Shown: piece by piece, positions 1 to 41,726 of the stretch
Position numbering within the stretch: position 1 is the stretch's first letter
How the letters are laid out: each line of letters opens with the position of its first letter
IMG/VR virus record: IMGVR_UViG_3300030037_000001
Coordinates: 1-41,726 of that record
Length of the DNA stretch: 41,726 bases
From: a virus
Lineage: Duplodnaviria; Caudoviricetes
Strand: one strand, 5' to 3'
The notes under the pieces: model-generated
Databases searched by the model: none
Seen by the model: the letters and a program-made list of their open reading frames with translations, nothing else
What the model was told of the DNA's origin: nothing
Program-made: the position numbers and the translations under genes

Positions 1-127
1 GTAAACCCGCTGTTGCCAGTAAGGTGTTCTTAGATTACTTACATTTATCCTATATAGACTCGGGGTCAATGCAGGTAGTTGTAGAGGATACACGTAATGG
101 TAGGGAGCAAACCTTTAGAATCAAGAG
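1..127. repeat. Exact 127-nt duplicate of window end (41600-41726); circular-assembly overlap
   Basis: GTAAACCCGC...ATCAAGAG is identical at both ends; 127 is a common assembler k-mer length; it lies inside a CDS. Confidence 0.95.
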
Positions 128-326
128 TGACTTTGGTAAACCCTTGGGTTCCATTCACTCCCTGTCTGACAGGCCAGTCTACAATGTATATACAGAAACA
201 GGTAGACGCCATGTTGGAGCAAGAGGTAGAACTGAGACGATTAAAGTAAAATTACAAGCAAACGGAGGACTCCCAGTTAGGATCTCCTCAGTAGAACAAA
301 CAGGCACAAGCCTAAACGAAAGTTAA
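1..326 (+). CDS. 3' part of a 135-aa gene starting at 41518 across the junction; C-terminal segment of tail tubular protein B (gp12-like)
   Basis: Continuous frame through the overlap; LDYLHLSYIDSGSMQVVVE...GRRHVGARG...LPVRISSVEQTG resembles the T7 gp12 C-terminus (LRRAWVNYENSGTFDIYVE...GQYRFPVVG...TPLNIIGCGWEG); directly upstream of the gp13-like gene. Confidence 0.75.
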   Translation, partial: KPAVASKVFLDYLHLSYIDSGSMQVVVEDTRNGREQTFRIKSDFGKPLGSIHSLSDRPVYNVYTETGRRHVGARGRTETIKVKLQANGGLPVRISSVEQTGTSLNES

Positions 327-345
327 ACACACAGGATAGTAAAAC

Positions 346-831
346 ATGGAATACACAATTATTGACGTTACGCAAGCACCACTCGATGTACTAAGACAGA
401 TTGCTAACATGAAGTTAAAACCAATTGATGCAGAAGAGTGCCTATACATGGGAGCTGAGAGTACTGAACAAGCTATAGGAACAGGTATAGCTACTAGTCA
501 GTTCTGTCAAGCACTCATTGATGACGCAGGTGAGCCACAGGCTGTATATGGCGTTGTGGACACCCCTGCTGGCTTCTCTGTACCTTGGTTGCTAACCACC
601 AGTGAACACAAGATCACTAAGTCGTGGTTGAGGATGTGCAAAGATACAATCTTCCCTTTGATGTGTGAGGATAGGAACTTCATGACTAACATGTGTTTCA
701 GTGACAACGTGGCTACAAAGAGATGGCTTAAGTTCATGGGTTTCTACTTTAAGAAATACGATGACAAGTGTGATCGCTTTATGCAGGATGTAACATTAAT
801 TCAACCAGAAGAGGATATAATCAATGTGTAG
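346..831 (+). CDS. Internal virion protein A-like (T7 gp13-like, GNAT-like fold)
   Basis: 161 aa; DAEE..., PWLLTT, N...N...RWLKFMGF pattern; synteny after gp12. Confidence 0.7.
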   Translation: MEYTIIDVTQAPLDVLRQIANMKLKPIDAEECLYMGAESTEQAIGTGIATSQFCQALIDDAGEPQAVYGVVDTPAGFSVPWLLTTSEHKITKSWLRMCKDTIFPLMCEDRNFMTNMCFSDNVATKRWLKFMGFYFKKYDDKCDRFMQDVTLIQPEEDIINV

Positions 832-11480: not shown

Positions 11481-11945
11481 ATGAGAGAAATAATTAACAC
11501 ACCTAATGAAAACATCGACGCACATCATATCCTAGCAAGGGCCATCAACGCATGGGATATCAACGCAGGAGATATTAACGCAAGGGCCATCAACGCATGG
11601 GATATCAACGCAGGAGATATTAACGCATGGGATATCAACGCATGGGATATCAACGCAGGAGATATTAACGCATGGGATATCAACGCATGGGATATCAACG
11701 CAGGAGATATTAACGCATGGGATATCAACGCAGGAGATATTAACGCATGGGATATCAACGCAGGAGATATTAACGCAGGAGATATTAACGCATGGGATAT
11801 CAACGCAGGAGATATTAACGCATGGGATATCAACGCAGGAGATATTAACGCAGGAGATATTAACGCGGATAGAATCACATGCAAGTCCTTGCAGTGCACA
11901 AACAGGCAGGAATTGATTGACGATGGTACGGTCACATTTACTTAA
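11481..11945 (+). CDS. Early pentapeptide-repeat protein (INAWD/INAGD), probable beta-solenoid
   Basis: 23 five-residue units; RBS AAGGA. Confidence 0.75.
   Translation: MREIINTPNENIDAHHILARAINAWDINAGDINARAINAWDINAGDINAWDINAWDINAGDINAWDINAWDINAGDINAWDINAGDINAWDINAGDINAGDINAWDINAGDINAWDINAGDINAGDINADRITCKSLQCTNRQELIDDGTVTFT
11529..11873 (+). repeat. 15-bp coding tandem repeat, 23 units
   Basis: AACGCA-TGGGATATC (10 copies), AACGCA-GGAGATATT (10 copies), plus 3 degenerate units. Confidence 0.95.
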
Positions 11946-14163: not shown

Positions 14164-14742
14164 ATGACTGAATACAATGTAGAAGTATACAGAAATAGAA
14201 CAGTATGGAAAAACAAAGCTGGCAAGCGCCATCGCTTAGATGGCCCCGCGATTGAGAGGTCAGACGGGTATAAAGTATGGTTTGTAGAAGGCAAGCGCCA
14301 TCGCTTAGACGGCCCCGCGGTTGAAGAAGGGGACGGCTCTAAAGTATGGTATGTAGAAGGCAAGCTCCACCGCTTAGATGGCCCCGCGATTGAAGAAGTG
14401 GATGGATATGGAGCATGGTACGTAGAAGGCAAGCGCCATCGTTTAGACGGCCCCGCGATTGAGTGGGCAGACGGCTATGGATCATGGTACGTAGAAGGCA
14501 AGCGTCATCGTTTAGACGGCCCCGCGATTGAGTGGGCAGACGGTTATACAGCATGGTACGTAGAGGACAAGCGCCATCGTTTAGACGGCCCCGCGATTGA
14601 GAGGTCAGACGGTTATAAAGCATGGTACGTAGAAGGCGAGGAACTAACTGAGCAAGAATTTAATAATACTGATAAGACTAAAGAAATGACGGTAGCAGAA
14701 AGCGAGAAGGCTTTAGGGTATTCAGTAAAAATAACTAAATAA
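14164..14742 (+). CDS. HRxDGPA-repeat (MORN-like beta-hairpin) protein
   Basis: Six 23-aa repeats GKRHRLDGPAIExxDGYxxWYVE; C-terminal EMTVAESEKALGYSVKI. Confidence 0.85.
   Translation: MTEYNVEVYRNRTVWKNKAGKRHRLDGPAIERSDGYKVWFVEGKRHRLDGPAVEEGDGSKVWYVEGKLHRLDGPAIEEVDGYGAWYVEGKRHRLDGPAIEWADGYGSWYVEGKRHRLDGPAIEWADGYTAWYVEDKRHRLDGPAIERSDGYKAWYVEGEELTEQEFNNTDKTKEMTVAESEKALGYSVKITK
14221..14634 (+). repeat. 69-bp coding tandem repeat, 6 units
   Basis: Units start at 14221, 14290, 14359, 14428, 14497 and 14566. Confidence 0.95.
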
Positions 14743-32691: not shown

Positions 32692-32952
32692 ATGTATATT
32701 AAAGACCCCGAGTCTAACCGTATGTACGCACTAGATTCAGCCAATGGTAGACGCCTAGCAGGCAAGTCAGAACCAGAGGTTAAACCCTCAGCAGACCCAA
32801 TGCTAGAAGCCTTCAATAACAACCCTTATGATTTAAACAAGGATGGACTCTTAGTTTTAGCCCATGGTTTAGACTTAAAGTTATCCACACGTATGAAAGA
32901 GAAGACTATGATCACTAAGATTTATGCCCACATTGAACAGGGTGGTAACTAG
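32692..32952 (+). CDS. Small protein with possible helix-extension-helix (Rho-N/SAP-like) C-terminus
   Basis: LNKDGLLVLAHGLDLKLSTRMKEKTMITKI pattern; RBS GAGG. Confidence 0.6.
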   Translation: MYIKDPESNRMYALDSANGRRLAGKSEPEVKPSADPMLEAFNNNPYDLNKDGLLVLAHGLDLKLSTRMKEKTMITKIYAHIEQGGN

Positions 32953-34559
32953 TGGCTGGTGGAGGGTTTAAAGTCCTAATACAAAAAATAGATGGTGTTG
33001 AGGTGGAATACTTCATACCAATTAATAATGCCAGTGGTGACAATGGGTTACTAGATGATGACGCCAATGTTGCTAAGCTAGAGCATTACGTAGGTGGTAC
33101 ACTTACTAATTACTGGTGGTCACACGCTAGTGGAACAGGTGGTGATGCTGGTATACCTCCAGAGATCTTCACAGCTAACATAGCTGAGTTCGATGGTACA
33201 AACAAAGGGTTAAACTTACCCGATGGTTTTGTGGATCACGCCTCAGACTTCACAGTAGGCCTTAGATTTACTGCGAATGTAACCGGGGGCATTAAGGCGC
33301 TGTTTAGAGTGCATGAGTCCACAGATAATAGGGTAGTCACACCAACCGTAACAGTAAGCGATTTAGGGCTATTAGTTATAAAAATAACAACACCTGTGGA
33401 TATTATTGAATATGAGTACGAAAGCCTTATTAGGTACGATGACGCTCTGCCTCACACCGTTGTAGTAGCTCATCAGTTGTCTACTAAGACATTGACGTAC
33501 TATGTTGATGGTGTAGAAGTGTTCACAGATACTTACGTGCAAGCTCTAAGAGCAAGCACATGGACTACTATAGGTAAGACTCGAGCAAACTACACGGGGC
33601 ATACTGGGGATTCGTACCACTCGGGGACAATTTGTGACTTCCAGTACTATGATGCATACCTTAGTGATACGCAGGTACAAGCTATGTACCCTACACTAGA
33701 TCCCATAACATGTTCGGATCTATTGGATGTCGGGGTAACTCCTAGGAACCACTACCCCGCGTACAACTATATAGGTTTTGTGAACCAAGAACTAGTTGAT
33801 ATACAAGGTAATGCAGTTGACCTAGTAGAGAGTCAAGCTATAGCTGTACCCTTCACAGGAACCTCGGATTTAGAGTGCGGTGTGTATGTACCTAGTGCTG
33901 ACCTCTGGTTTAAGACCTCGGGCTCAGTACTCAATAGAACACCTAATGTGCAATTTTCACTAGCTAATTGGCTTGTAAGTACAGGTGATCTTTATGAAGG
34001 GGTTAGTTCACCGAGTATCACAATACCCGATACAGCAGAATATTTAATAGAAGTCACCGACTTTGACCCCTTACTTTGTACGGGCGCGTTTCAGATGCAG
34101 AATGACTCAATAGTAGAAATGAGTGATTTGAGTGCTTTCTCTGAGATTACGAGCTTGCGACTAGACGAAAACTTTGCCTTACAGGAGGCTGGTAGTTTCT
34201 CTACTATGACCAAGATCAGTTCAGCATTTTACATAAATGATTGTGACTGGCAAGGCTTACGAGATGTTCCCGTTGCTCCATCTATGACAAACCTTAGGTT
34301 TCAAAATAACAGTGGACTAACTTCAATCACAACGATATTAGGCTGTTTAGCTCTAGTGGAGATTCGTGGCGAAGGTTGCGCCCTAGACTCAACCACAGTC
34401 GGAAACCTCATAACAGACACCGACACCAACGGCGCATCCAACGGTACAATGAACATCAGCGGTGGCACAAACGCACTTGTTCCACTCTCAGCACAAGCAG
34501 CATTAACAAGTCTTCTTGGAAAGGGATGGACTGTGACACATAACGGCTTAGAGGTATAA
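32952..34559 (+). CDS. LamG/concanavalin-like plus LRR-like protein, probable virion fibre or decoration
   Basis: FDG..., FTVGLRF, HTVVV, YYVDG, G.I.DFQYYD..LS..QV; C-terminal LRR-like repeats and L.GKGWTV. Confidence 0.7.
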   Translation: MAGGGFKVLIQKIDGVEVEYFIPINNASGDNGLLDDDANVAKLEHYVGGTLTNYWWSHASGTGGDAGIPPEIFTANIAEFDGTNKGLNLPDGFVDHASDFTVGLRFTANVTGGIKALFRVHESTDNRVVTPTVTVSDLGLLVIKITTPVDIIEYEYESLIRYDDALPHTVVVAHQLSTKTLTYYVDGVEVFTDTYVQALRASTWTTIGKTRANYTGHTGDSYHSGTICDFQYYDAYLSDTQVQAMYPTLDPITCSDLLDVGVTPRNHYPAYNYIGFVNQELVDIQGNAVDLVESQAIAVPFTGTSDLECGVYVPSADLWFKTSGSVLNRTPNVQFSLANWLVSTGDLYEGVSSPSITIPDTAEYLIEVTDFDPLLCTGAFQMQNDSIVEMSDLSAFSEITSLRLDENFALQEAGSFSTMTKISSAFYINDCDWQGLRDVPVAPSMTNLRFQNNSGLTSITTILGCLALVEIRGEGCALDSTTVGNLITDTDTNGASNGTMNISGGTNALVPLSAQAALTSLLGKGWTVTHNGLEV

Positions 34560-34561
34560 AA

Positions 34562-34987
34562 ATGATTGAAGTAATTGAAGCAGTAGATGAAATCTATTCA
34601 GTATCAAATGATGGTACAAAGTGGGTGATTAGTATCAATGGGGTAGACGCGCTTGGGGTCACTAAGTTTGAGGGAAGGATTGACACCGAGGCTAAATTAG
34701 CTTACATGCAATCAATGCACCCGACTTATGCAAGTACTGATATGTTAGAATTAATCCAGTATTGCATGAGCGAGTCTTTTATTGTGACTGAATTGATTTT
34801 TTCAGATGTGATTAGTTATGTAATACAGGATAATCACCCCGTGGCAGATGGGGTAACTGAAGGTTTCGCCGATTACCTCACTAGTGCGGGGGTAAGGGCC
34901 AATGAAGATAAGATATTGGAGTTGGAGGCGTATTGCACAACTAATGGTTATCAATTCGATGTGAGGTTATTGGATTTAACGCAGTGA
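34562..34987 (+). CDS. Acidic hypothetical protein
   Basis: 141 aa, RBS GAGG. Confidence 0.65.
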   Translation: MIEVIEAVDEIYSVSNDGTKWVISINGVDALGVTKFEGRIDTEAKLAYMQSMHPTYASTDMLELIQYCMSESFIVTELIFSDVISYVIQDNHPVADGVTEGFADYLTSAGVRANEDKILELEAYCTTNGYQFDVRLLDLTQ

Positions 34988-35001
34988 TGTAAATTAAATA
35001 T

Positions 35002-35031
35002 AAAAAGCCCTGCTTAATGGTGGGGTTTTTT
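35002..35031 (+). terminator. Intrinsic terminator, possibly bidirectional
   Basis: A5-GCCCTGC...GTGGGG-T6. Confidence 0.75.
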
Positions 35032-35132
35032 GTGTAAGAATAATATAACAAAATTATATAATGCGATTTGATAAAGGTTTAAGCGTGTGTATAAGGCGGT
35101 TATTAAGTTAATAAATAAAAAGAGGTTTTAAA

Positions 35133-35249
35133 ATGAATAAAAATCATGAAGTAGGTACAAAGATCTCCTACAGAAGAACCAATACAGAAGCAGAGTTAGA
35201 ACAATGGGTTTTGGACAATGATGTCACATTGCCTGTAGATGAGGTCTAG
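35133..35249 (+). CDS. 38-aa hypothetical or remnant ORF
   Basis: RBS AGAGG; MNKNHEVGTK...LPVDEV; overlaps the next start. Confidence 0.45.
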   Translation: MNKNHEVGTKISYRRTNTEAELEQWVLDNDVTLPVDEV

Positions 35250-35736
35250 CTTCACTGTAGCACTCTTATTAAACCTCGTAACCTCTTGTTCTACCCCAAG
35301 TAAGCAAAAGGTTATTGAGGCTCTTGATAGGGTCACTGCAGAGCTCACAGTAATCAAAGAGGTTGCATATGAGATTGAAGTAGAATACCCCGAGACAAAA
35401 CCTAAGGTCAAACTTATTAAAGACAGTGTGTCAAACATTGAGTCAGAACTTCCCGTAATAAAAAAGGAAGTCGGTAAGTTTGATAAAAAAGTGAAAGAGC
35501 CTACTAAGTTTGAGGCTTACTTACCTTGGGTTCTCATGGCTGGCGGTATAGCTATGCTTTGGTTTGCAATTAGTACACCAGACAGGACAGATGACTTCAT
35601 AGGTGTCATAATGTGTGCATCTAGTTTTGTTGTTGCTAAGTGGTATACAGAGATTGCAATAGGTGCAGGTATTGTACTATTACTATATTTAATTATAATT
35701 GGAGCTAAGTACTTTGCTCTAAGGAAAACACCGTGA
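35239..35736 (+). CDS. Putative lipoprotein with coiled coil and 2-3 C-terminal TM helices (candidate lysis protein)
   Basis: Lipobox-like VTS-C17; hydrophobic segments in the last ~75 aa. Confidence 0.6.
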   Translation: MRSSFTVALLLNLVTSCSTPSKQKVIEALDRVTAELTVIKEVAYEIEVEYPETKPKVKLIKDSVSNIESELPVIKKEVGKFDKKVKEPTKFEAYLPWVLMAGGIAMLWFAISTPDRTDDFIGVIMCASSFVVAKWYTEIAIGAGIVLLLYLIIIGAKYFALRKTP

Positions 35737-36071
35737 ATGAGAATATATTAAGAACTATACTAGGTCTCCTATCCGTGAGTATGGTGGCACTAGCAACTTG
35801 GGTGAATGGGACAACCAGTAAGCTGGCTGTGTTATCGGATAATGTACACACCTTACGATCTAGTCATGTTAATGGCCCCGCTCTAATGGAGCAGTTGAAG
35901 GGCTTACATAGTAGTATGAATGAGTTACGTATACCCGAGGGTAGATCCCGTATTGCTATACTTGAGAAGGAGAGTGCGCAGTTCCAACACCTAATTGTTA
36001 AACTAGATGACTCACTGCGTAAACTGGTGATTGAGATCACAGTACTACAGAATATTAAAAAAGGAGGCTGA
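35733..36071 (+). CDS. N-terminal TM plus coiled-coil protein (holin / i-spanin candidate)
   Basis: ILRTILGLLSVSMVALATWV followed by heptads. Confidence 0.55.
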   Translation: MNENILRTILGLLSVSMVALATWVNGTTSKLAVLSDNVHTLRSSHVNGPALMEQLKGLHSSMNELRIPEGRSRIAILEKESAQFQHLIVKLDDSLRKLVIEITVLQNIKKGG

Positions 36072-36073
36072 TA

Positions 36074-36685
36074 ATGCCTATAAACACAACCAGTAGTATC
36101 ACTGAGTTGTCAGCGGTTGGGGTTATATCTAGTTATCTAGGTATACCCGCACCTGTGGATATCAACGACTTGTTGATTGACCCAGACTGGATCAGATCAC
36201 TGGCAATATTGAAATCAGTAACCAAGGAAGCCTTACATAAAGGGTTAGAAGAGAATACAGATGAGGATTATACATTACTCAAGGAACCAGATGGTACAGT
36301 GTTGATACCTGCTGGAACACTCCGTTGGATCGTGAAGCACGACACCCATGAGCAGTATGTCCAACGTGATGGTATGGTGTACGATAAGAAAGCCCATACG
36401 TTCACTATTGATAAAGACCTAGTGGTTGACATCGTGTGGAACATGACGTTCGACTCCCTGCCCGAGATGATCAAGAACTACATCACCATCAAAGCAGCCT
36501 ATCGTGTGGTATCCCGTCTCAAGGGGTCAGACTCAGTGTTGAACTCTATCCAACAAGATTTGGACGATGCTAACTACGAGTACCTAAGGTATCAAGGACG
36601 TAACAACAAGATGTCACTCCTCGATAACCCAGACGTAAACTACATAGCCAGTAGGCACATGCAGTATAACCATCACTTGAGGTAG
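36074..36685 (+). CDS. Tail tubular protein A (gp11-like)
   Basis: TELSAV, R.G.VYD...T.T, FDSLPE....YI..KAA motifs. Confidence 0.9.
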   Translation: MPINTTSSITELSAVGVISSYLGIPAPVDINDLLIDPDWIRSLAILKSVTKEALHKGLEENTDEDYTLLKEPDGTVLIPAGTLRWIVKHDTHEQYVQRDGMVYDKKAHTFTIDKDLVVDIVWNMTFDSLPEMIKNYITIKAAYRVVSRLKGSDSVLNSIQQDLDDANYEYLRYQGRNNKMSLLDNPDVNYIASRHMQYNHHLR

Positions 36686-36688
36686 GCC

Positions 36689-36790
36689 ATGAATAATTTT
36701 ATAAAGTGGTCTTCAGTGCCTTACGTGATACGTATTCTAATAGCACTAGAAGCAGGTTACTTAGTTTACAATGCAGGGAGGTTCCTCTAA
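36689..36790 (+). CDS. 33-aa hydrophobic micro-ORF
   Basis: MNNFIKWSSVPYVIRILIALEAGYLVYNAGRFL; GAGG RBS; TAATG overlap with the gp12 start. Confidence 0.5.
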   Translation: MNNFIKWSSVPYVIRILIALEAGYLVYNAGRFL

Positions 36791-38916
36791 TGAGTAAATT
36801 TATTCGTAATGACAACTCCCTGTACAATGGGATTAGTCAACAAGCGGTTGAACTCAGATTGCCAAACCAAGTGTCTGACGCGGTGAATGCCAAGATGTCC
36901 GTATCCTACGGTTTAGAGAAGCGTCCACCAGCAGAGGTAATCACTCGTAAGGTAGGTTCAACTCTCAACATGGATACACTGGTTCACACCATTAACAGGG
37001 ATAGCCAAGAGCAGTATGTCATGGCTTGGTCTAACACAGGTAATAGCACAGTGTTCGATCTCTCTGGTAATGAGTTACCTATCATCTATGATGTACCAGC
37101 TGTTCAAACGTACATTGAGACTGTGGATTCAACCACTGGTCTATACAAACCTAGCTTGGACTTGAAGTTAACCACTGTACTAGATAACACGTTGTTAGTT
37201 AATACCAATGTCGTAGCCAATATGAATCCAGCGAGTAACACTCCTGCATTAACCAATGATGTATATCTATGGGTTGAGAACGGTATAGAGCAGGTTGAGC
37301 GCAAGTTAATCATTGATGGTACATTAGAGATGACAGCACCCAAGGGTAGCTTGAATGACACTGAGGTCATCATTGATGAGTTTATACTAGCCTTCGTAGG
37401 TGAGACGACTTATGTGGTATCTAAGATATCTAAGTCAGTCATGCTTATACGTAGAGCTGATGGGGCGTTACCTAAGGTTGTAGCCACAGATACATATAGT
37501 GATTCAACCATGAGTGTAACCTCCAGCCAAGGCGCTAAGTTTGAGAACCTTCCACCTAGAGCTTTAGATGGTGCAGTAGTACGTATACAATCAGACACAC
37601 CTAGTGAAGCTGAGCATTACCTTAAGTATGACGAGGAGAAAGACGCTTGGTTTGAGACAACTGGCCCGAATGAGCCCGAGGCCCTTGAGCCAAACACTAT
37701 GCCTAAGACAGTAGTCAGACGAGTGGACGATCCAGCAGGTACAATCACAGGTACGCCTAATCAGATCTACTTCAGTGTCGAGAACATTGACTGGTCTATC
37801 AAGGAATCGGGTGCTATTGAAGAGGCTCCAAACCCCTCGTTTACAGGAAGTCCCATCTCTGAGGTATTCTTCTATAAGAACAGACTAGGGTTCCTCAGTG
37901 GTGAGAACGTGATACTATCTAGGATTGACGACTTGTTTAACTTCTTCCCTACCTCGATTAAAGAGGTGTTGGACGATGACCCTGTAGATATATCCGTGAG
38001 TTCAAACACAGCGTTGAACCTCATACACGTAGCTACATTCCCCGACTCCCTAGTTCTGTTTGGTACTAACAAGCAGTTTACACTCCATTCGGATGGTAAG
38101 CCTTTCACAGCGTTGAACATCACGGTAGACCCCACGACTGCATACAATGCAAACCTTGAGGCAAGCCCTGTGTCAGTAGGCTCATCCTTATTCTTCAATG
38201 CTCCAGTAGGTCGCTACTCATCAATGAGAGAGTACGCTATCACACCAGATACACTAGTAGCTGATGCTGTAGGTGTAACAGGTCATGTACCTAGATTCCT
38301 ACCAGCCAACATAAAGCAGATACTTGCAGAGCCTAACCTCGAGTACCTATTCTTAATTGATAAGAACGAAGCTAGGGACACCTGTGATAATACACTGTGG
38401 GTATACAAGTTCTTTTGGCAAGGTAATCAGAAACTTCAATCCTCATGGGTTAAGTGGGAATTCTGGTGCAACCCGATCGGTGGTGGCTTGTTCGGTGGTA
38501 ACCTAGTAGTTCTAGCCCAAGATGGTGAAGACACTGTGTTAACCACAATGAACCTAGAGGATCAACCCGTTGAGATACTACGTGAAGGTACAGAGATTCC
38601 ATTCAAGGTAACTTTACCTTTGATTGACAATCAGACTCTCACAGCTCAAGAGGATATAACCTTTGGTCAAGACAACATCACAGCTGAAGTTACTGAGGAA
38701 GTCTACAATCAGTATGGGCAGGAATGTGTACAAGGTGTTCTAATAGATCGTTGGACAGGTGAGGAATACCTATATGATCGTAAGTTTATATCAGAGGGTA
38801 ATCACTTCTTGGTATTCATAGGTATAAGCTCTGGAGTTATTACACCAGAAGCCACAGATGATAAAGTCCTAGGTACTTACACCATAGGCGTTAACCAAAT
38901 AGACACAGGAGCTTAA
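36790..38916 (+). CDS. Tail tubular protein B (gp12-like nozzle), N-terminal 708 aa
   Basis: NGISQQ...R, GLEKRPP, NPSF.G, FFYKNRLGFLSGENVILSR, DDPVD, QSSW.KW; lacks the canonical C-terminal ~130 aa. Confidence 0.92.
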   Translation: MSKFIRNDNSLYNGISQQAVELRLPNQVSDAVNAKMSVSYGLEKRPPAEVITRKVGSTLNMDTLVHTINRDSQEQYVMAWSNTGNSTVFDLSGNELPIIYDVPAVQTYIETVDSTTGLYKPSLDLKLTTVLDNTLLVNTNVVANMNPASNTPALTNDVYLWVENGIEQVERKLIIDGTLEMTAPKGSLNDTEVIIDEFILAFVGETTYVVSKISKSVMLIRRADGALPKVVATDTYSDSTMSVTSSQGAKFENLPPRALDGAVVRIQSDTPSEAEHYLKYDEEKDAWFETTGPNEPEALEPNTMPKTVVRRVDDPAGTITGTPNQIYFSVENIDWSIKESGAIEEAPNPSFTGSPISEVFFYKNRLGFLSGENVILSRIDDLFNFFPTSIKEVLDDDPVDISVSSNTALNLIHVATFPDSLVLFGTNKQFTLHSDGKPFTALNITVDPTTAYNANLEASPVSVGSSLFFNAPVGRYSSMREYAITPDTLVADAVGVTGHVPRFLPANIKQILAEPNLEYLFLIDKNEARDTCDNTLWVYKFFWQGNQKLQSSWVKWEFWCNPIGGGLFGGNLVVLAQDGEDTVLTTMNLEDQPVEILREGTEIPFKVTLPLIDNQTLTAQEDITFGQDNITAEVTEEVYNQYGQECVQGVLIDRWTGEEYLYDRKFISEGNHFLVFIGISSGVITPEATDDKVLGTYTIGVNQIDTGA

Positions 38917-38917
38917 A

Positions 38918-40756
38918 ATGCCCTTAGTAGTAACAAATAATAACCAAGTGACACTAGGTGTTGCATTAGGTAGTTCAGACACTACGATGACAGTATCTAG
39001 TATCGTAGGTTTACCAGATGTTTCAGCACCTGCTGATTACACAATCATGACATTGACTAGTGCATCCACAGGAGCTATTGAGTATGTACGCTGTACTGAC
39101 CTTGATACCCTAACAAGGGTTTACACTATCCAACGTGGACAGGAAGGGACAATCCCACAGACATGGATCGTAGGGGACTTAGTGAAGAACTACTTCACAG
39201 CTGGTATGTTCACAGAGCTAGCTAACAGTGCCTCTAGCGCAATGAAGACAGCCAGTCATACCATTGATGGGACTCTAGCAGTAGCTAACCCTGCTGGTGA
39301 GAATAGTGACCTTCTAATACTTGCTAAGTATGGTAATCAGTTAATTGAAGGAACAGACTATAATTTAGTAGATGGTGGGGACACTATCAACTTCATTGGT
39401 GGACAAGCGGTTGAGACAGAGGTAGTGACTTTTGTTTACACCGAGGGTGTAGCAGAGTCAACACCCACCTTCGCTATAGAGGAGTTAACCGCTACTGAAG
39501 TGGATGTGAATAAAGTACTACGTCCCACGGGTGCGGGAGGTGTGGAGTGGCTGGCTGATAATTCTGGCCTAACAGGCCGTGTAGTGGTTACCGAAGCTAG
39601 TCAGCTAGCTACAATAAATCCTACAGTGGAGTACTTCATAGATGGGGTAGTAGATATGGGTACACAGACTATTGAAGTACCAGCAGGAGGTATTAACATT
39701 AGAGGGTTCAACCTAGGTATATCTAAATTAATAAGCACGCAACCTAACTATACCTTATTCACCTCACCAGTGGGTGGTAGTGGGAACGTCCTCGATCAAG
39801 ATATAACCTATGACGTATCTGGTACGAACTCCTCGGTCTACGCATTGACCGATGCTTCGGGCTTTAGTGCCTTTGAGCATAATAGGGTTAATTGGGAGAA
39901 CTGCACATCACTCGGTTACATCGACGGTTATAGGCAAGGTCTAGAACTCGGCACAGGTAGGTTTGGGGGTACACCTCAGTTAGAGCTACGTGGAACGTGG
40001 ATTGGTGGTTACAAGTGTACAACCACAATCGTTCGCTCACTTACTGATGGGGCATACAGTCTATTCTCAGCAGGTGTTGGTTTTACGATGTCATCTCGCT
40101 TCTTCTCAGACGTGAACGCTGATCTGAATACGACTGTATCTTTGATAGATTTTGCCCCTAGTAATTTTCCAAACCCTAGTACCTTGCAATTACAGGGTTG
40201 TGAGATGTCTCGTAATGGTACTAAGGATGCAGGGGATACCACGCTGTTACCTAATGTATCAGCTAGTGATTTGTGCTCAGCCTTTCGTAATAATAGTGGG
40301 TTGCCTAATACGTTTGTAGGAGGTGCTTGGAATGTCACATCTGAGGTTGCGACTATCATTAGCTCGACAGGGGTGTTTACTGACCTACTAGGTGTTTTCA
40401 CGGCGGGTGGTCTCGTACACTTTGATTCACCTGCTTCTGGCCAACTGAGACATCTAGGTACAGACCCCCGAGATTTCAGACTGACACTGGCTGTATCACT
40501 TGAAGGGCCCGCTAATGACACCGTACAACTTCGGGTAAAACGGTGGGATGACTCCGCTAGTACCCTAGTGGATGTGATAACACAAAGTCGCCCTATTAAT
40601 AACCTACAAGGTGGTAGGGATTTTGCATACTTCGATCTAATTGTATCTACACAGTTGGATATAAATGATTACGTTTACGCAGAGGTGGCTAACTTAACAA
40701 CTACAGGTAACTTAACGGCTGAAGTCGGTAGCTATATGATAGTAGAATCAAGGTAG
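38918..40756 (+). CDS. Tail fibre / spike-like receptor-binding protein
   Basis: N-terminal NN..TL...RGQEGT..W..G domain common in phage fibres; EGTDY module; beta-rich middle; C1q/TNF-like end (NDYV). Confidence 0.7.
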   Translation: MPLVVTNNNQVTLGVALGSSDTTMTVSSIVGLPDVSAPADYTIMTLTSASTGAIEYVRCTDLDTLTRVYTIQRGQEGTIPQTWIVGDLVKNYFTAGMFTELANSASSAMKTASHTIDGTLAVANPAGENSDLLILAKYGNQLIEGTDYNLVDGGDTINFIGGQAVETEVVTFVYTEGVAESTPTFAIEELTATEVDVNKVLRPTGAGGVEWLADNSGLTGRVVVTEASQLATINPTVEYFIDGVVDMGTQTIEVPAGGINIRGFNLGISKLISTQPNYTLFTSPVGGSGNVLDQDITYDVSGTNSSVYALTDASGFSAFEHNRVNWENCTSLGYIDGYRQGLELGTGRFGGTPQLELRGTWIGGYKCTTTIVRSLTDGAYSLFSAGVGFTMSSRFFSDVNADLNTTVSLIDFAPSNFPNPSTLQLQGCEMSRNGTKDAGDTTLLPNVSASDLCSAFRNNSGLPNTFVGGAWNVTSEVATIISSTGVFTDLLGVFTAGGLVHFDSPASGQLRHLGTDPRDFRLTLAVSLEGPANDTVQLRVKRWDDSASTLVDVITQSRPINNLQGGRDFAYFDLIVSTQLDINDYVYAEVANLTTTGNLTAEVGSYMIVESR

Positions 40757-40765
40757 AGGTACAAT

Positions 40766-41515
40766 ATGATATTTAAGAAATGGATTAACACTGTGTTTGG
40801 AACCACTGGTGCCCTAGAGGGTACAGACATTCCTTACGATGTGTCAGACTCAGTGACATCAAAGATTGACGCAATAACTAGAACCAAGGCTTCACAGGCT
40901 GAGGTAGACGCAGGGACTGATGACATTAAGTTTATCACCCCGTTGACACTCGAGTCTAAACCTAAGGATACAGGTAGTGACCTCTTGTACACATTCGACT
41001 TGACTAATGCTGGGGGTAATGACCTTGGTACAGCACAGGTCTTACATGATGTATCATGGGATCAGTACGATGAACTATACGTTGAACTCAAGGGTGTCAG
41101 CGTATCGGGTGTAGCATCTGATAGAGCAATAGGTGTAGTAGTTTACAATGTGAATACACCAACTACTTACATTGAGTTTGTAGGCAGTGGTCAAGAGGCC
41201 TTCCTAATGACTAATGTGAGCCTAGATGAGGGGGACATAGTTGATATTGGTTTCTTCATGTCAGCCACAGGTGTTGCTAAAGCTCCTAGAGGGCACAAGC
41301 ATGTGTCTGCAACTAGGAGTTATGGACATGCCACTGAAGGTCTGGGGTTTGGAGCAACATACGCGGGTGCAGGTTACGCGTCTAGTGGTTTTGACAACTG
41401 GCCTTGTTGGCCTACAGGTGGTGACACTTGGTCAGACCATGCGTTCGACATAAGACTAGAGAATGCCACGGTGTTCACCGGTGGTACACTAACAGTTAGA
41501 GGAGTTAATATCTGA
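40766..41515 (+). CDS. Short tail-fibre-like protein
   Basis: ASQAEVDAGTDD.KFITP fibre repeat; C-terminal GGTLTVRGV. Confidence 0.65.
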   Translation: MIFKKWINTVFGTTGALEGTDIPYDVSDSVTSKIDAITRTKASQAEVDAGTDDIKFITPLTLESKPKDTGSDLLYTFDLTNAGGNDLGTAQVLHDVSWDQYDELYVELKGVSVSGVASDRAIGVVVYNVNTPTTYIEFVGSGQEAFLMTNVSLDEGDIVDIGFFMSATGVAKAPRGHKHVSATRSYGHATEGLGFGATYAGAGYASSGFDNWPCWPTGGDTWSDHAFDIRLENATVFTGGTLTVRGVNI

Positions 41516-41517
41516 TT

Positions 41518-41726
41518 ATGGCTGACGAGAGATTTAGTATTGGGTTTAGATACCCTATGGATGTTGAACTCTCTCAGTTAGTACCTATTGATGAAGGTGG
41601 TAAACCCGCTGTTGCCAGTAAGGTGTTCTTAGATTACTTACATTTATCCTATATAGACTCGGGGTCAATGCAGGTAGTTGTAGAGGATACACGTAATGGT
41701 AGGGAGCAAACCTTTAGAATCAAGAG
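41518..41726 (+). CDS. 5' part of the 135-aa gp12 C-terminal-segment gene (continues to 326)
   Basis: MADERFSIGFRYPMDVELSQLVPIDEGGKPAVASKVFLDY...; resembles T7 gp12 YIGFNINFVYEFSKF; GAGGAG upstream; ATG 2 nt after the previous stop. Confidence 0.75.
   Translation, partial: MADERFSIGFRYPMDVELSQLVPIDEGGKPAVASKVFLDYLHLSYIDSGSMQVVVEDTRNGREQTFRIK
41600..41726. repeat. Duplicate of 1-127 (assembly overlap)
   Basis: Exact match. Confidence 0.95.

What the first reader, a model, noticed from the sequence alone, without database searches (positions are those of the whole stretch)
36790..41726. Tail nozzle gene (gp12) split in two with two fibre genes nested between the halves
Seen: the gp12 homologue stops after 708 aa. 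Two fibre-like genes follow (612 and 249 aa). A 135-aa ORF (41518 through the junction to 326) then reads FSIGFRYPMDVELSQ...KVFLDYLHLSYIDSGSMQVVVE...LPVRISSVEQTG and is followed by gp13, the usual gp12 neighbour. The junctions between these four genes are only 1-9 nt. Established (recalled): T7 gp12 is a single ~794-aa chain ending YIGFNINFVYEFSKF...RLQLRRAWVNYENSGTFDIYVE...PLNIIGCGWEG, with N- and C-terminal parts forming the gp11-facing platform and a fibre-dock domain preceding the C-terminal part. Inference: the break falls just after the fibre-dock region and frees a new C-terminal arm (GVITPEATDDKVLGTYTIGVNQIDTGA) that could anchor non-gp17 fibres. This would be a two-chain nozzle with a swappable dock-plus-RBP cassette flanked by conserved gp12 sequence. 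It is easy to miss because the contig break cuts the small gene.
Basis: partly seen in the sequence, partly recalled or inferred. Interest (0 to 1): 0.8.

Follow-up and report, generated by a model that had tools for sequence, protein, structure and literature searches.

The report
Split T7-like nozzle enclosing fibre genes
In this complete T7-like phage genome and its uncultured relatives, the gene for the tail nozzle is cut in two with predicted tail-fibre genes between the halves, and relatives carry different genes in that gap; the two pieces likely reassemble into one nozzle, a new variant of the split nozzle already solved in phage A1002.

Summary
Confirmed. The genome is circular and the 135-aa ORF is intact across the 127-nt end repeat. 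The 708-aa protein models onto T7 gp12 residues 2-660 and the 135-aa protein onto about 662-792. Nothing is lost or duplicated; the only addition is a 30-residue C-terminal arm with a conserved core. The split marks a clade: all 11 N-halves in the tree form one branch. A sister group at 45% identity has the same break around a different four-gene insert. Two relatives are 98.6% identical from the C-gene start codon but 27.5% just upstream, so the nested genes are exchanged. The C gene is under purifying selection (dN/dS 0.15-0.29). No gp17 was found. The first nested gene starts with a domain homologous to the phage GP4 fibre N-terminus; its binding to the dock-plus-arm region got only weak model support (0.51, best control 0.01). 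Correction: fibre bodies and downstream genes swap, not the dock. A split nozzle is published for Pseudomonas phage A1002, at another break point, and this scan noted split nozzles on other DNA at least nine times. I found no report for a T7-type gp12. Verdict: new variant of a known kind.

The parts
36074..36685 (+). gp11 adaptor (tail tubular protein A), 203 aa; predicted docking surface for the nozzle platform
   Evidence: PF17212 E 1e-22; PHROG 446
36790..38916 (+). Nozzle N-piece, 708 aa: N-terminal platform strands, propeller, tip and most of the fibre dock
   Evidence: PF25675 9-598; AF2 mean pLDDT 84; residues 2-678 align to T7 gp12 2-660, Z 31.3, rmsd 3.8, 623 aligned
38824..38913 (+). 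New C-terminal arm, residues 679-708, with conserved core D-x-x-[IV]-L-G-[ST]-Y-x-x-G; candidate fibre anchor
   Evidence: Outside the T7 alignment; mostly pLDDT under 50 in the monomer; core conservation 0.86 against 0.69 for the dock in 10 rows
38918..40756 (+). Nested gene 1, 612 aa predicted spike/fibre: anchor-type N-domain 1-105, small linker domain ~106-180, PHROG 16509 body 221-611 (beta-helix-like by predicted structure)
   Evidence: PHROG 16509 E 2e-118; PHROG 6427/8469/30299 at the N-terminus; Atlas neighbours; 1189 homologues among 7998 candidates scored
38918..39232 (+). N-domain homologous to the N-terminus of the 439-aa phage GP4 tail fibre (PDB 8JOV, 18 chains)
   Evidence: hhalign probability 96.7, E 3.5e-10; hmmsearch E 4.6e-8 to 8jov_1; 55 phage records at E<=0.01
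40766..41515 (+). Nested gene 2, 249 aa fibre-like protein; N-terminus shared with L004, C-terminal domain variable
   Evidence: PHROG 910 collar-fibre repeat at 42-65, E 0.006, weak; L004 179-aa counterpart; different C-termini in L004 and L005; Atlas neighbours viral and unnamed
41518..41726 (+). Nozzle C-piece gene, 5' part (135 aa in all, continuing across the circular junction)
   Evidence: ATG at 41518 with GAGGAG at 41499-41504; PHROG 457 666-729
1..326 (+). Nozzle C-piece gene, 3' part: platform jelly-roll equal to T7 gp12 up to ~792
   Evidence: Profile to T7 gp12 658-792, E 4.5e-22 (this profile includes intact nozzles); model to T7 7ey9, Z 11.7, rmsd 3.3, 120 aligned; dN/dS 0.15-0.29
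41600..41726 (.). 127-nt terminal direct repeat (same as 1-127); circular assembly overlap that cuts the C gene
346..831 (+). gp13-like internal virion protein, the usual downstream neighbour of gp12
   Evidence: PHROG 308 E 2e-17; a gene of this size and kind follows the C gene in L003, L004, L005, L006, L031, L032

Best explanation
The T7-type nozzle gene is split at T7 residue ~661 into a 708-aa and a 135-aa gene with predicted fibre genes nested between them, and the two products likely reassemble non-covalently into one nozzle subunit. How (inferred): in T7 the platform jelly-roll is built from the C-terminal domain plus three strands from the first 45 residues (PMC6702177), so the C piece would be held by completing that barrel and probably the last dock strand; six pairs would form the ring under gp11. 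Cutting the chain in this outward-facing loop freed a C-terminus that gained a 30-residue arm. The arm, with the dock, is the most likely seat for the N-domain trimer of the first nested fibre, in place of the missing gp17 (inferred, about 0.45). Because essential nozzle sequence flanks the fibre genes on both sides, homologous recombination can exchange them as a block or in part. The exchange is shown; the use of the flanks as homology arms is inferred.
For: Complementary coverage of T7 gp12 without overlap. 8 of 8 other hits to residues 520-708 are 708-712 aa long, and no intact form appeared among 295 candidates of 389-1239 aa. 8 other standalone 135-136-aa C pieces (only 58-188 aa searched). 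In the whole-library search, 5 of 6 hits are 129-137 aa and 1 is an intact 831-aa nozzle. The 11 split N-halves form one branch, SH 100. L031 and L032 have the same break around 4 other genes. L004 and L005 share 552 of 560 nt from the C-gene ATG but 44 of 160 nt upstream. Fibre homologues P0024 and P0029 are 97-100% identical over 1-180 and 52-54% over the body. dN/dS 0.15-0.29 in 10 pairs. Purine-rich ribosome-binding-like motifs lie upstream of all 7 C-gene starts examined (read by eye). The arm core and the fibre N-domain are both kept at 45% nozzle identity. Fibre N-domain x3 with residues 600-708: weak support, median 0.51 (runs 0.51, 0.02, 0.61), best of 3 controls 0.01, run agreement at least 46%, partner pLDDT at least 49. 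The mark was reached by 116 of 157 solved and 2 of 215 mismatched pairs, but at 0.60 or under by only 18 solved pairs and by both passing mismatches. A solved split nozzle completes its folds the same way (PMC13730344).
Against: No virion, protein or RNA data exist; no cultured phage matches closely. The N+C complex was not modelled. The arm-fibre score is of a size more often wrong than right, one run of three failed, and no contacts were given, so arm and dock cannot be told apart. The C-piece model is of low confidence (pLDDT 57). Only three loci show both halves on one contig (window, L031, L032), and the last two are near-copies. P0139-P0142 have no genomic context and lie on contigs of 545-3871 nt. 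Only one exchange point falls at a nozzle flank; no exchange at the N-side flank was seen.
Confidence: 0.75

Rival explanations
1. The nozzle is two-chain, but the arm does not anchor the fibre. It folds back on the dock or clamps the C piece or a neighbouring subunit, and the fibre N-domain binds gp11 or another collar site.
For: The arm has short predicted strands (697-699, 702-704) and is conserved like a structural element. The same N-domain occurs in podophages and myophages that are not T7-like, so it can bind other partners. The complex score is weak.
Against: The arm shows no likeness to the strand now on the C piece (hhalign probability 0.9). It is kept together with the fibre N-domain across the clade. 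Two of three complex runs scored 0.51-0.61 against controls of 0.01 or less.
Confidence: 0.4
2. The halves are rejoined at the RNA or ribosome level (self-splicing or translational bypass), giving an ordinary one-chain gp12.
For: In the window the N stop and C start are in the same frame (gap 2601 nt); the same holds in L032 (4449 nt).
Against: The gap in L031 is 4441 nt, out of frame. No Rfam family reached its threshold in the window or L031. The C gene has its own ATG with an upstream purine-rich motif in 7 of 7 loci. The arm is conserved as protein. The insert sequence next to the C start is freely exchanged.
Confidence: 0.03
3. The C gene is a decaying remnant and the 708-aa protein forms the nozzle alone.
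For: Split genes are often decay intermediates (general knowledge).
Against: dN/dS 0.15-0.29. Length fixed at 129-137 aa down to 27% identity. The platform is the gp11-binding domain in T7 (PMC6702177), and the N piece holds only its three N-terminal strands.
Confidence: 0.03
4. Mis-assembly or sequencing error created the split.
For: The record is metagenomic and the contig end falls inside the C gene.
Against: Identical sequence in L002 and in a Logan contig; the same layout in L001, L004, L030-L032 at 45-70% nozzle identity.
Confidence: 0.01

Closest known systems
T7 gp12 nozzle / tail tubular protein B (PF25675, PHROG 457; PDB 6R21, 9JYZ; PMC6702177, passages seen)
   Same: Same fold and domain order; the two pieces together cover residues 2-792; flanked by gp11 and gp13 in a genome with a T7-type RNA polymerase, capsid and terminase.
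   Different: Two genes instead of one, a 30-residue arm at the break, fibre genes inside the nozzle locus, and no gp17 found.
Pseudomonas phage A1002 (Kochitakasuvirus) nozzle-base gp42 plus nozzle-rope gp39 (PMC13730344; parts 1-5 of 9 read, supplements not opened)
   Same: Nozzle built from two chains by fold completion; by gene numbers the two fibre genes gp41 and gp40 lie between the halves (my inference from numbering); the freed end serves fibre attachment.
   Different: A1002 is cut inside the propeller/dock. Its C piece is 620 aa with a ~300 A rope that binds 11 fibre dimers. Here the propeller is whole, the C piece is only the 135-aa platform, the extension is on the N piece, and the fibre has a GP4 8JOV-type N-domain. 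The lineages differ (63.8-kb phage against a 41.6-kb T7-like phage).
Ralstonia phage GP4 439-aa tail fibre (PDB 8JOV) and Bcep22-like fibres (PHROG 8469, 30299)
   Same: Homologous ~105-residue N-domain at the start of the first nested gene.
   Different: GP4 is not T7-like. How its fibre docks I could not read: the structure paper is not in the library and I saw only its citation. A trimer is inferred from 18 chains.
gp17-type swappable receptor-binding cassettes of T7-like phages (recalled)
   Same: Conserved anchor with exchangeable distal body, exchanged by recombination.
   Different: The anchor is not PF03906, and the cassette lies between nozzle halves rather than after gp16.

Membership tests
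T7 gp12 nozzle (PF25675) | Propeller, tip and fibre-dock fold | tested here: met
   PF25675 462.6 bits against cut-off 27; Z 31.3 to 9jyz_P
T7 gp12 nozzle (PF25675) | C-terminal platform jelly-roll | tested here: met
   Present, but on the separate 135-aa gene
T7 gp12 nozzle (PF25675) | Single polypeptide of about 800 aa | tested here: not met
   Two ORFs 2601 nt apart. It works like gp12 but is not a canonical one-chain member.
T7 gp12 nozzle (PF25675) | Position between gp11 and gp13 | tested here: met
   gp11 precedes the N gene and gp13 follows the C gene
T7 gp12 nozzle (PF25675) | Hexamer bound under gp11, with gp17 fibres docked | not testable with these tools
   No virion data; PF03906 had no match at E<=1 in the genome
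A1002-type split nozzle | Nozzle encoded by two genes with fibre genes between | tested here: met
   the A1002 order is inferred from its gene numbers
A1002-type split nozzle | C piece carries propeller strands and a long rope | tested here: not met
   C piece is 135 aa, platform only; the N piece aligns continuously through the propeller
A1002-type split nozzle | Dimeric 140-170-aa chain-like fibre subunits | tested here: inconclusive
   Nested proteins are 612 and 249 aa and match the GP4 439-aa and 295-aa fibres rather than its 140-aa protein; no direct comparison with A1002 gp40/gp41 was made
A1002-type split nozzle | Two chains complement each other in the virion | not testable with these tools
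   Inferred from coverage; the N+C complex was not modelled
Self-splicing intron interrupting gp12 | Intron RNA structure and in-frame exon junction | tested here: not met
   0 Rfam matches; gap mod 3 is 0, 1, 0 in three loci

The most novel reading that the evidence does not exclude
A marine T7-like lineage has replaced the gp17 system: it cut its nozzle at the dock-platform loop, grew a peptide arm that plugs into a GP4-type trimeric fibre anchor borrowed from unrelated podophages, and parked its receptor-binding genes between two essential half-genes that act as fixed recombination flanks. The dock-platform loop would then be a general splittable site in T7-type nozzles (L038 is cut nearby independently), and the arm/N-domain pair a portable peptide-and-socket fibre mount.
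Probability: 0.35. Interest if true: 0.7.

Novelty: new variant of a known kind. Interest (0 to 1): 0.5.

Why it matters
It shows that the T7-type nozzle, the textbook one-chain tail tip, tolerates a cut at a defined loop, stably across a clade down to 45% identity. It also gives a sequence-level case of receptor-binding genes exchanged right at the edge of an essential half-gene. If the arm is the anchor, it is a second way for T7-like phages to mount fibres, independent of gp17. In practice it warns annotators that short 'hypothetical' genes before gp13 can be nozzle halves. The principle of a split nozzle is already published for A1002, which limits the surprise.

Tried and rejected
Single-sequence searches with the 107-aa part of the C piece found no nozzle in PDB and nothing in cultured phages. 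The 9-row profile also missed PDB nozzles; only the fold search and a profile widened with intact nozzles reached them. Scans of viral contigs with the C piece or its first alignment found nothing; later scans returned only L001 and L030-L032 again. L007 is a weak hit (E 9e-6) that my C profile did not confirm. The idea that the fibre N-domain is the GP4/A1002 chain-fibre dimer unit was dropped: it matches the 439-aa and 295-aa GP4 fibres. Residues ~101-188 of the 612-aa protein looked gp17-like by eye but had no Pfam match at E<=10, and their alignment to two gp17-like N-termini was 13-25%. No target-site duplication or terminal repeat bounds the insert. The arm is not a copy of the C piece's first strand. 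The first tree run did not finish; FastTree was used, leaving out ORFs under 600 or over 950 aa, L002 and rows identical in their first 80 residues. Runs X2 and X3 hold next to none of the words. Literature searches gave only A1002 for a split nozzle and no split T7-type gp12; the library lacks most subscription papers. Look-ups of earlier scan notes by sequence or place found no look-alike.
Full report
Setting. The window is a complete circular phage genome with a 127-nt end overlap. It encodes a T7-type RNA polymerase, capsid and terminase. No cultured phage is close: the best nozzle matches are about 30% identical and the best polymerase matches 28-29%. The only run holding the stretch is labelled seawater metagenome.

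Observation. L002 matches the circularised window without mismatch over 12,855 nt and carries the 135-aa ORF whole. A Logan contig of run X1 is identical over 35500-41726, though it may come from the source sample.

Anatomy of the split. The 708-aa protein matches PHROG 457 positions 9-628 and the 135-aa protein positions 666-788. An AlphaFold2 model of the N piece (41 rows, pLDDT 84) aligns over residues 2-678 with T7 gp12 2-660 (Z 31.3, rmsd 3.8, 623 aligned); residues 680-708 are mostly under pLDDT 50. The C-piece model is weak (pLDDT 57), yet its 14 best Foldseek rows are T7-type nozzles, and the best VIA match is T7 gp12 at Z 11.7. A profile that also holds intact nozzles maps it to T7 658-792. 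The alignment puts its start eight residues before the one invariant Gly, which places the break at about T7 661. PMC6702177 (passages) says the fibre dock links propeller and platform, and that the platform barrel takes three strands from the first 45 residues and binds gp11. So the N piece cannot build a platform alone, and the C piece has a ready way to attach. That the C piece also gives the last dock strand is my inference.

A clade-wide trait. All 8 other proteins matching residues 520-708 end at 708-712 aa (295 candidates of 389-1239 aa). Eight other standalone C pieces of 135-136 aa were found. A whole-library profile search gave 6 hits: five of 129-137 aa and one intact nozzle of 831 aa. 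Of 67 further nozzle loci, 49 have both parts in one ORF; 4 complete ORFs missed my C profile but end in a platform-like segment by eye; 9 are cut by the contig end; 1 has no usable ORF; 3 (L030-L032) share this split; and 1 (L038) is cut differently. In a FastTree of 54 rows the 11 split N-halves form one branch (SH 100), with L038 far away. The C gene shows dN/dS 0.15-0.29 in 10 pairs, with some dS near saturation.

The insert is variable. L031 and L032 (nozzle 45% identical) read: N piece 719 aa, 394-aa fibre, 737/740-aa LamG protein, DUF4376 protein, DUF1353 protein, C piece 134 aa, gp13. L004 has a 612-like gene, then a 179-aa gene sharing the start of the 249-aa protein, then the C gene. 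L004 and L005 are identical at 552 of 560 nt from the C-gene ATG and at 44 of 160 nt upstream, so an exchange ends at that start codon. Fibre homologues P0024 and P0029 are 97-100% identical over residues 1-180 and 52-54% over the body. What stays fixed is the dock, the arm and the first fibre's N-domain. The swapped unit is therefore the fibre bodies and downstream genes, not the dock.

The anchor question. No gp17 domain was found, and gp16 is followed by the terminase genes. The 612-aa N-domain is homologous to the N-terminus of the GP4 439-aa fibre, PDB 8JOV. The arm core D-x-x-[IV]-L-G-[ST]-Y-x-x-G has mean conservation 0.86 in 10 rows, against 0.69 for the dock and 0.85 for the propeller. 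A complex of three N-domains with residues 600-708 scored a median 0.51 (runs 0.51, 0.02, 0.61) against a best control of 0.01, with run agreement at least 46% and partner pLDDT at least 49. The mark was met by 116 of 157 solved and 2 of 215 mismatched pairs, but at 0.60 or under by only 18 solved pairs and by both passing mismatches. This is weak, gives no contacts, and does not separate arm from dock. I put the anchor role at about 0.45.

Rivals. Splicing or bypass: the gaps are 2601, 4441 and 4449 nt, not all in frame, and there is no Rfam match. Decay is excluded by selection and fixed length. Mis-assembly is excluded by the related loci. The live rival is a structural role of the arm within the nozzle.

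Comparison with what is known. PMC13730344 (parts 1-5 of 9 read; supplements not opened) describes a two-chain nozzle in phage A1002, gp42 and gp39, with fibres gp41 and gp40 between them by numbering. Its cut is inside the propeller/dock, and its C piece is a 620-aa rope protein. This finding works like it but fails two of its features, so it is a separate variant. Seven literature searches showed no split T7-type gp12. PMC11784390 (passages) added only the GP4 citation. Earlier notes of this scan list nine split nozzles or hubs on other DNA, unchecked here; none was a look-alike by sequence.

Verdict. Real, conserved and well resolved at gene level; two-chain assembly likely but untested; fibre anchoring by the arm open. 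New variant of a known kind, interest 0.5.

Noticed in passing
window 32952-34559; L031 4220-5548 and 9885-12098: A second adhesin slot lies between capsid and gp11. The window has a 535-aa LamG protein there and a PHROG 16509 spike in the nozzle gap; L030-L032 have PHROG 16509 after the capsid and LamG in the nozzle gap. The two domain families have traded places.
   Followed up: partly
L038 7974-11296: An unrelated nozzle (27% identity) is cut into three abutting ORFs of 674, 249 and 183 aa inside the dock; the last matches PHROG 457 617-792. One contig only; could be an independent split or errors.
   Followed up: partly
L015 3489-5702; L070/L071 nozzle; L012, L047: Intact nozzles in a neighbouring branch have a very short or no dock. 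L015 and L070 carry a short repeated P-L-Y-P-S-type motif in its place. In L012, L015, L047 and L071 the genes after the nozzle look fibre-like by eye rather than gp13. This may resemble the state before the split.
   Followed up: partly
window 38918-40756 and 40766-41515: The two nested genes are in the same frame, separated by TAG plus 9 nt; readthrough would fuse them. The second has its own GAGGT motif, and in L004 the two genes are in different frames, so this is probably incidental.
   Followed up: partly
window 11481-11945 and 14164-14742: Two early genes are built of short peptide repeats: a five-residue repeat protein of 154 aa and a 192-aa protein with about six 22-residue repeats.
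   Followed up: no
window 34562-36071: A 141-aa ORF and two membrane-type ORFs (165 and 112 aa) lie between the LamG gene and gp11 with no PHROG match; the last two may be lysis genes in an unusual place.
   Followed up: no
L031 9885-12098: The LamG protein has three ~167-residue repeats (501-nt spacing), and L031 and L032 differ in single repeats and in the LamG domain.
   Followed up: no
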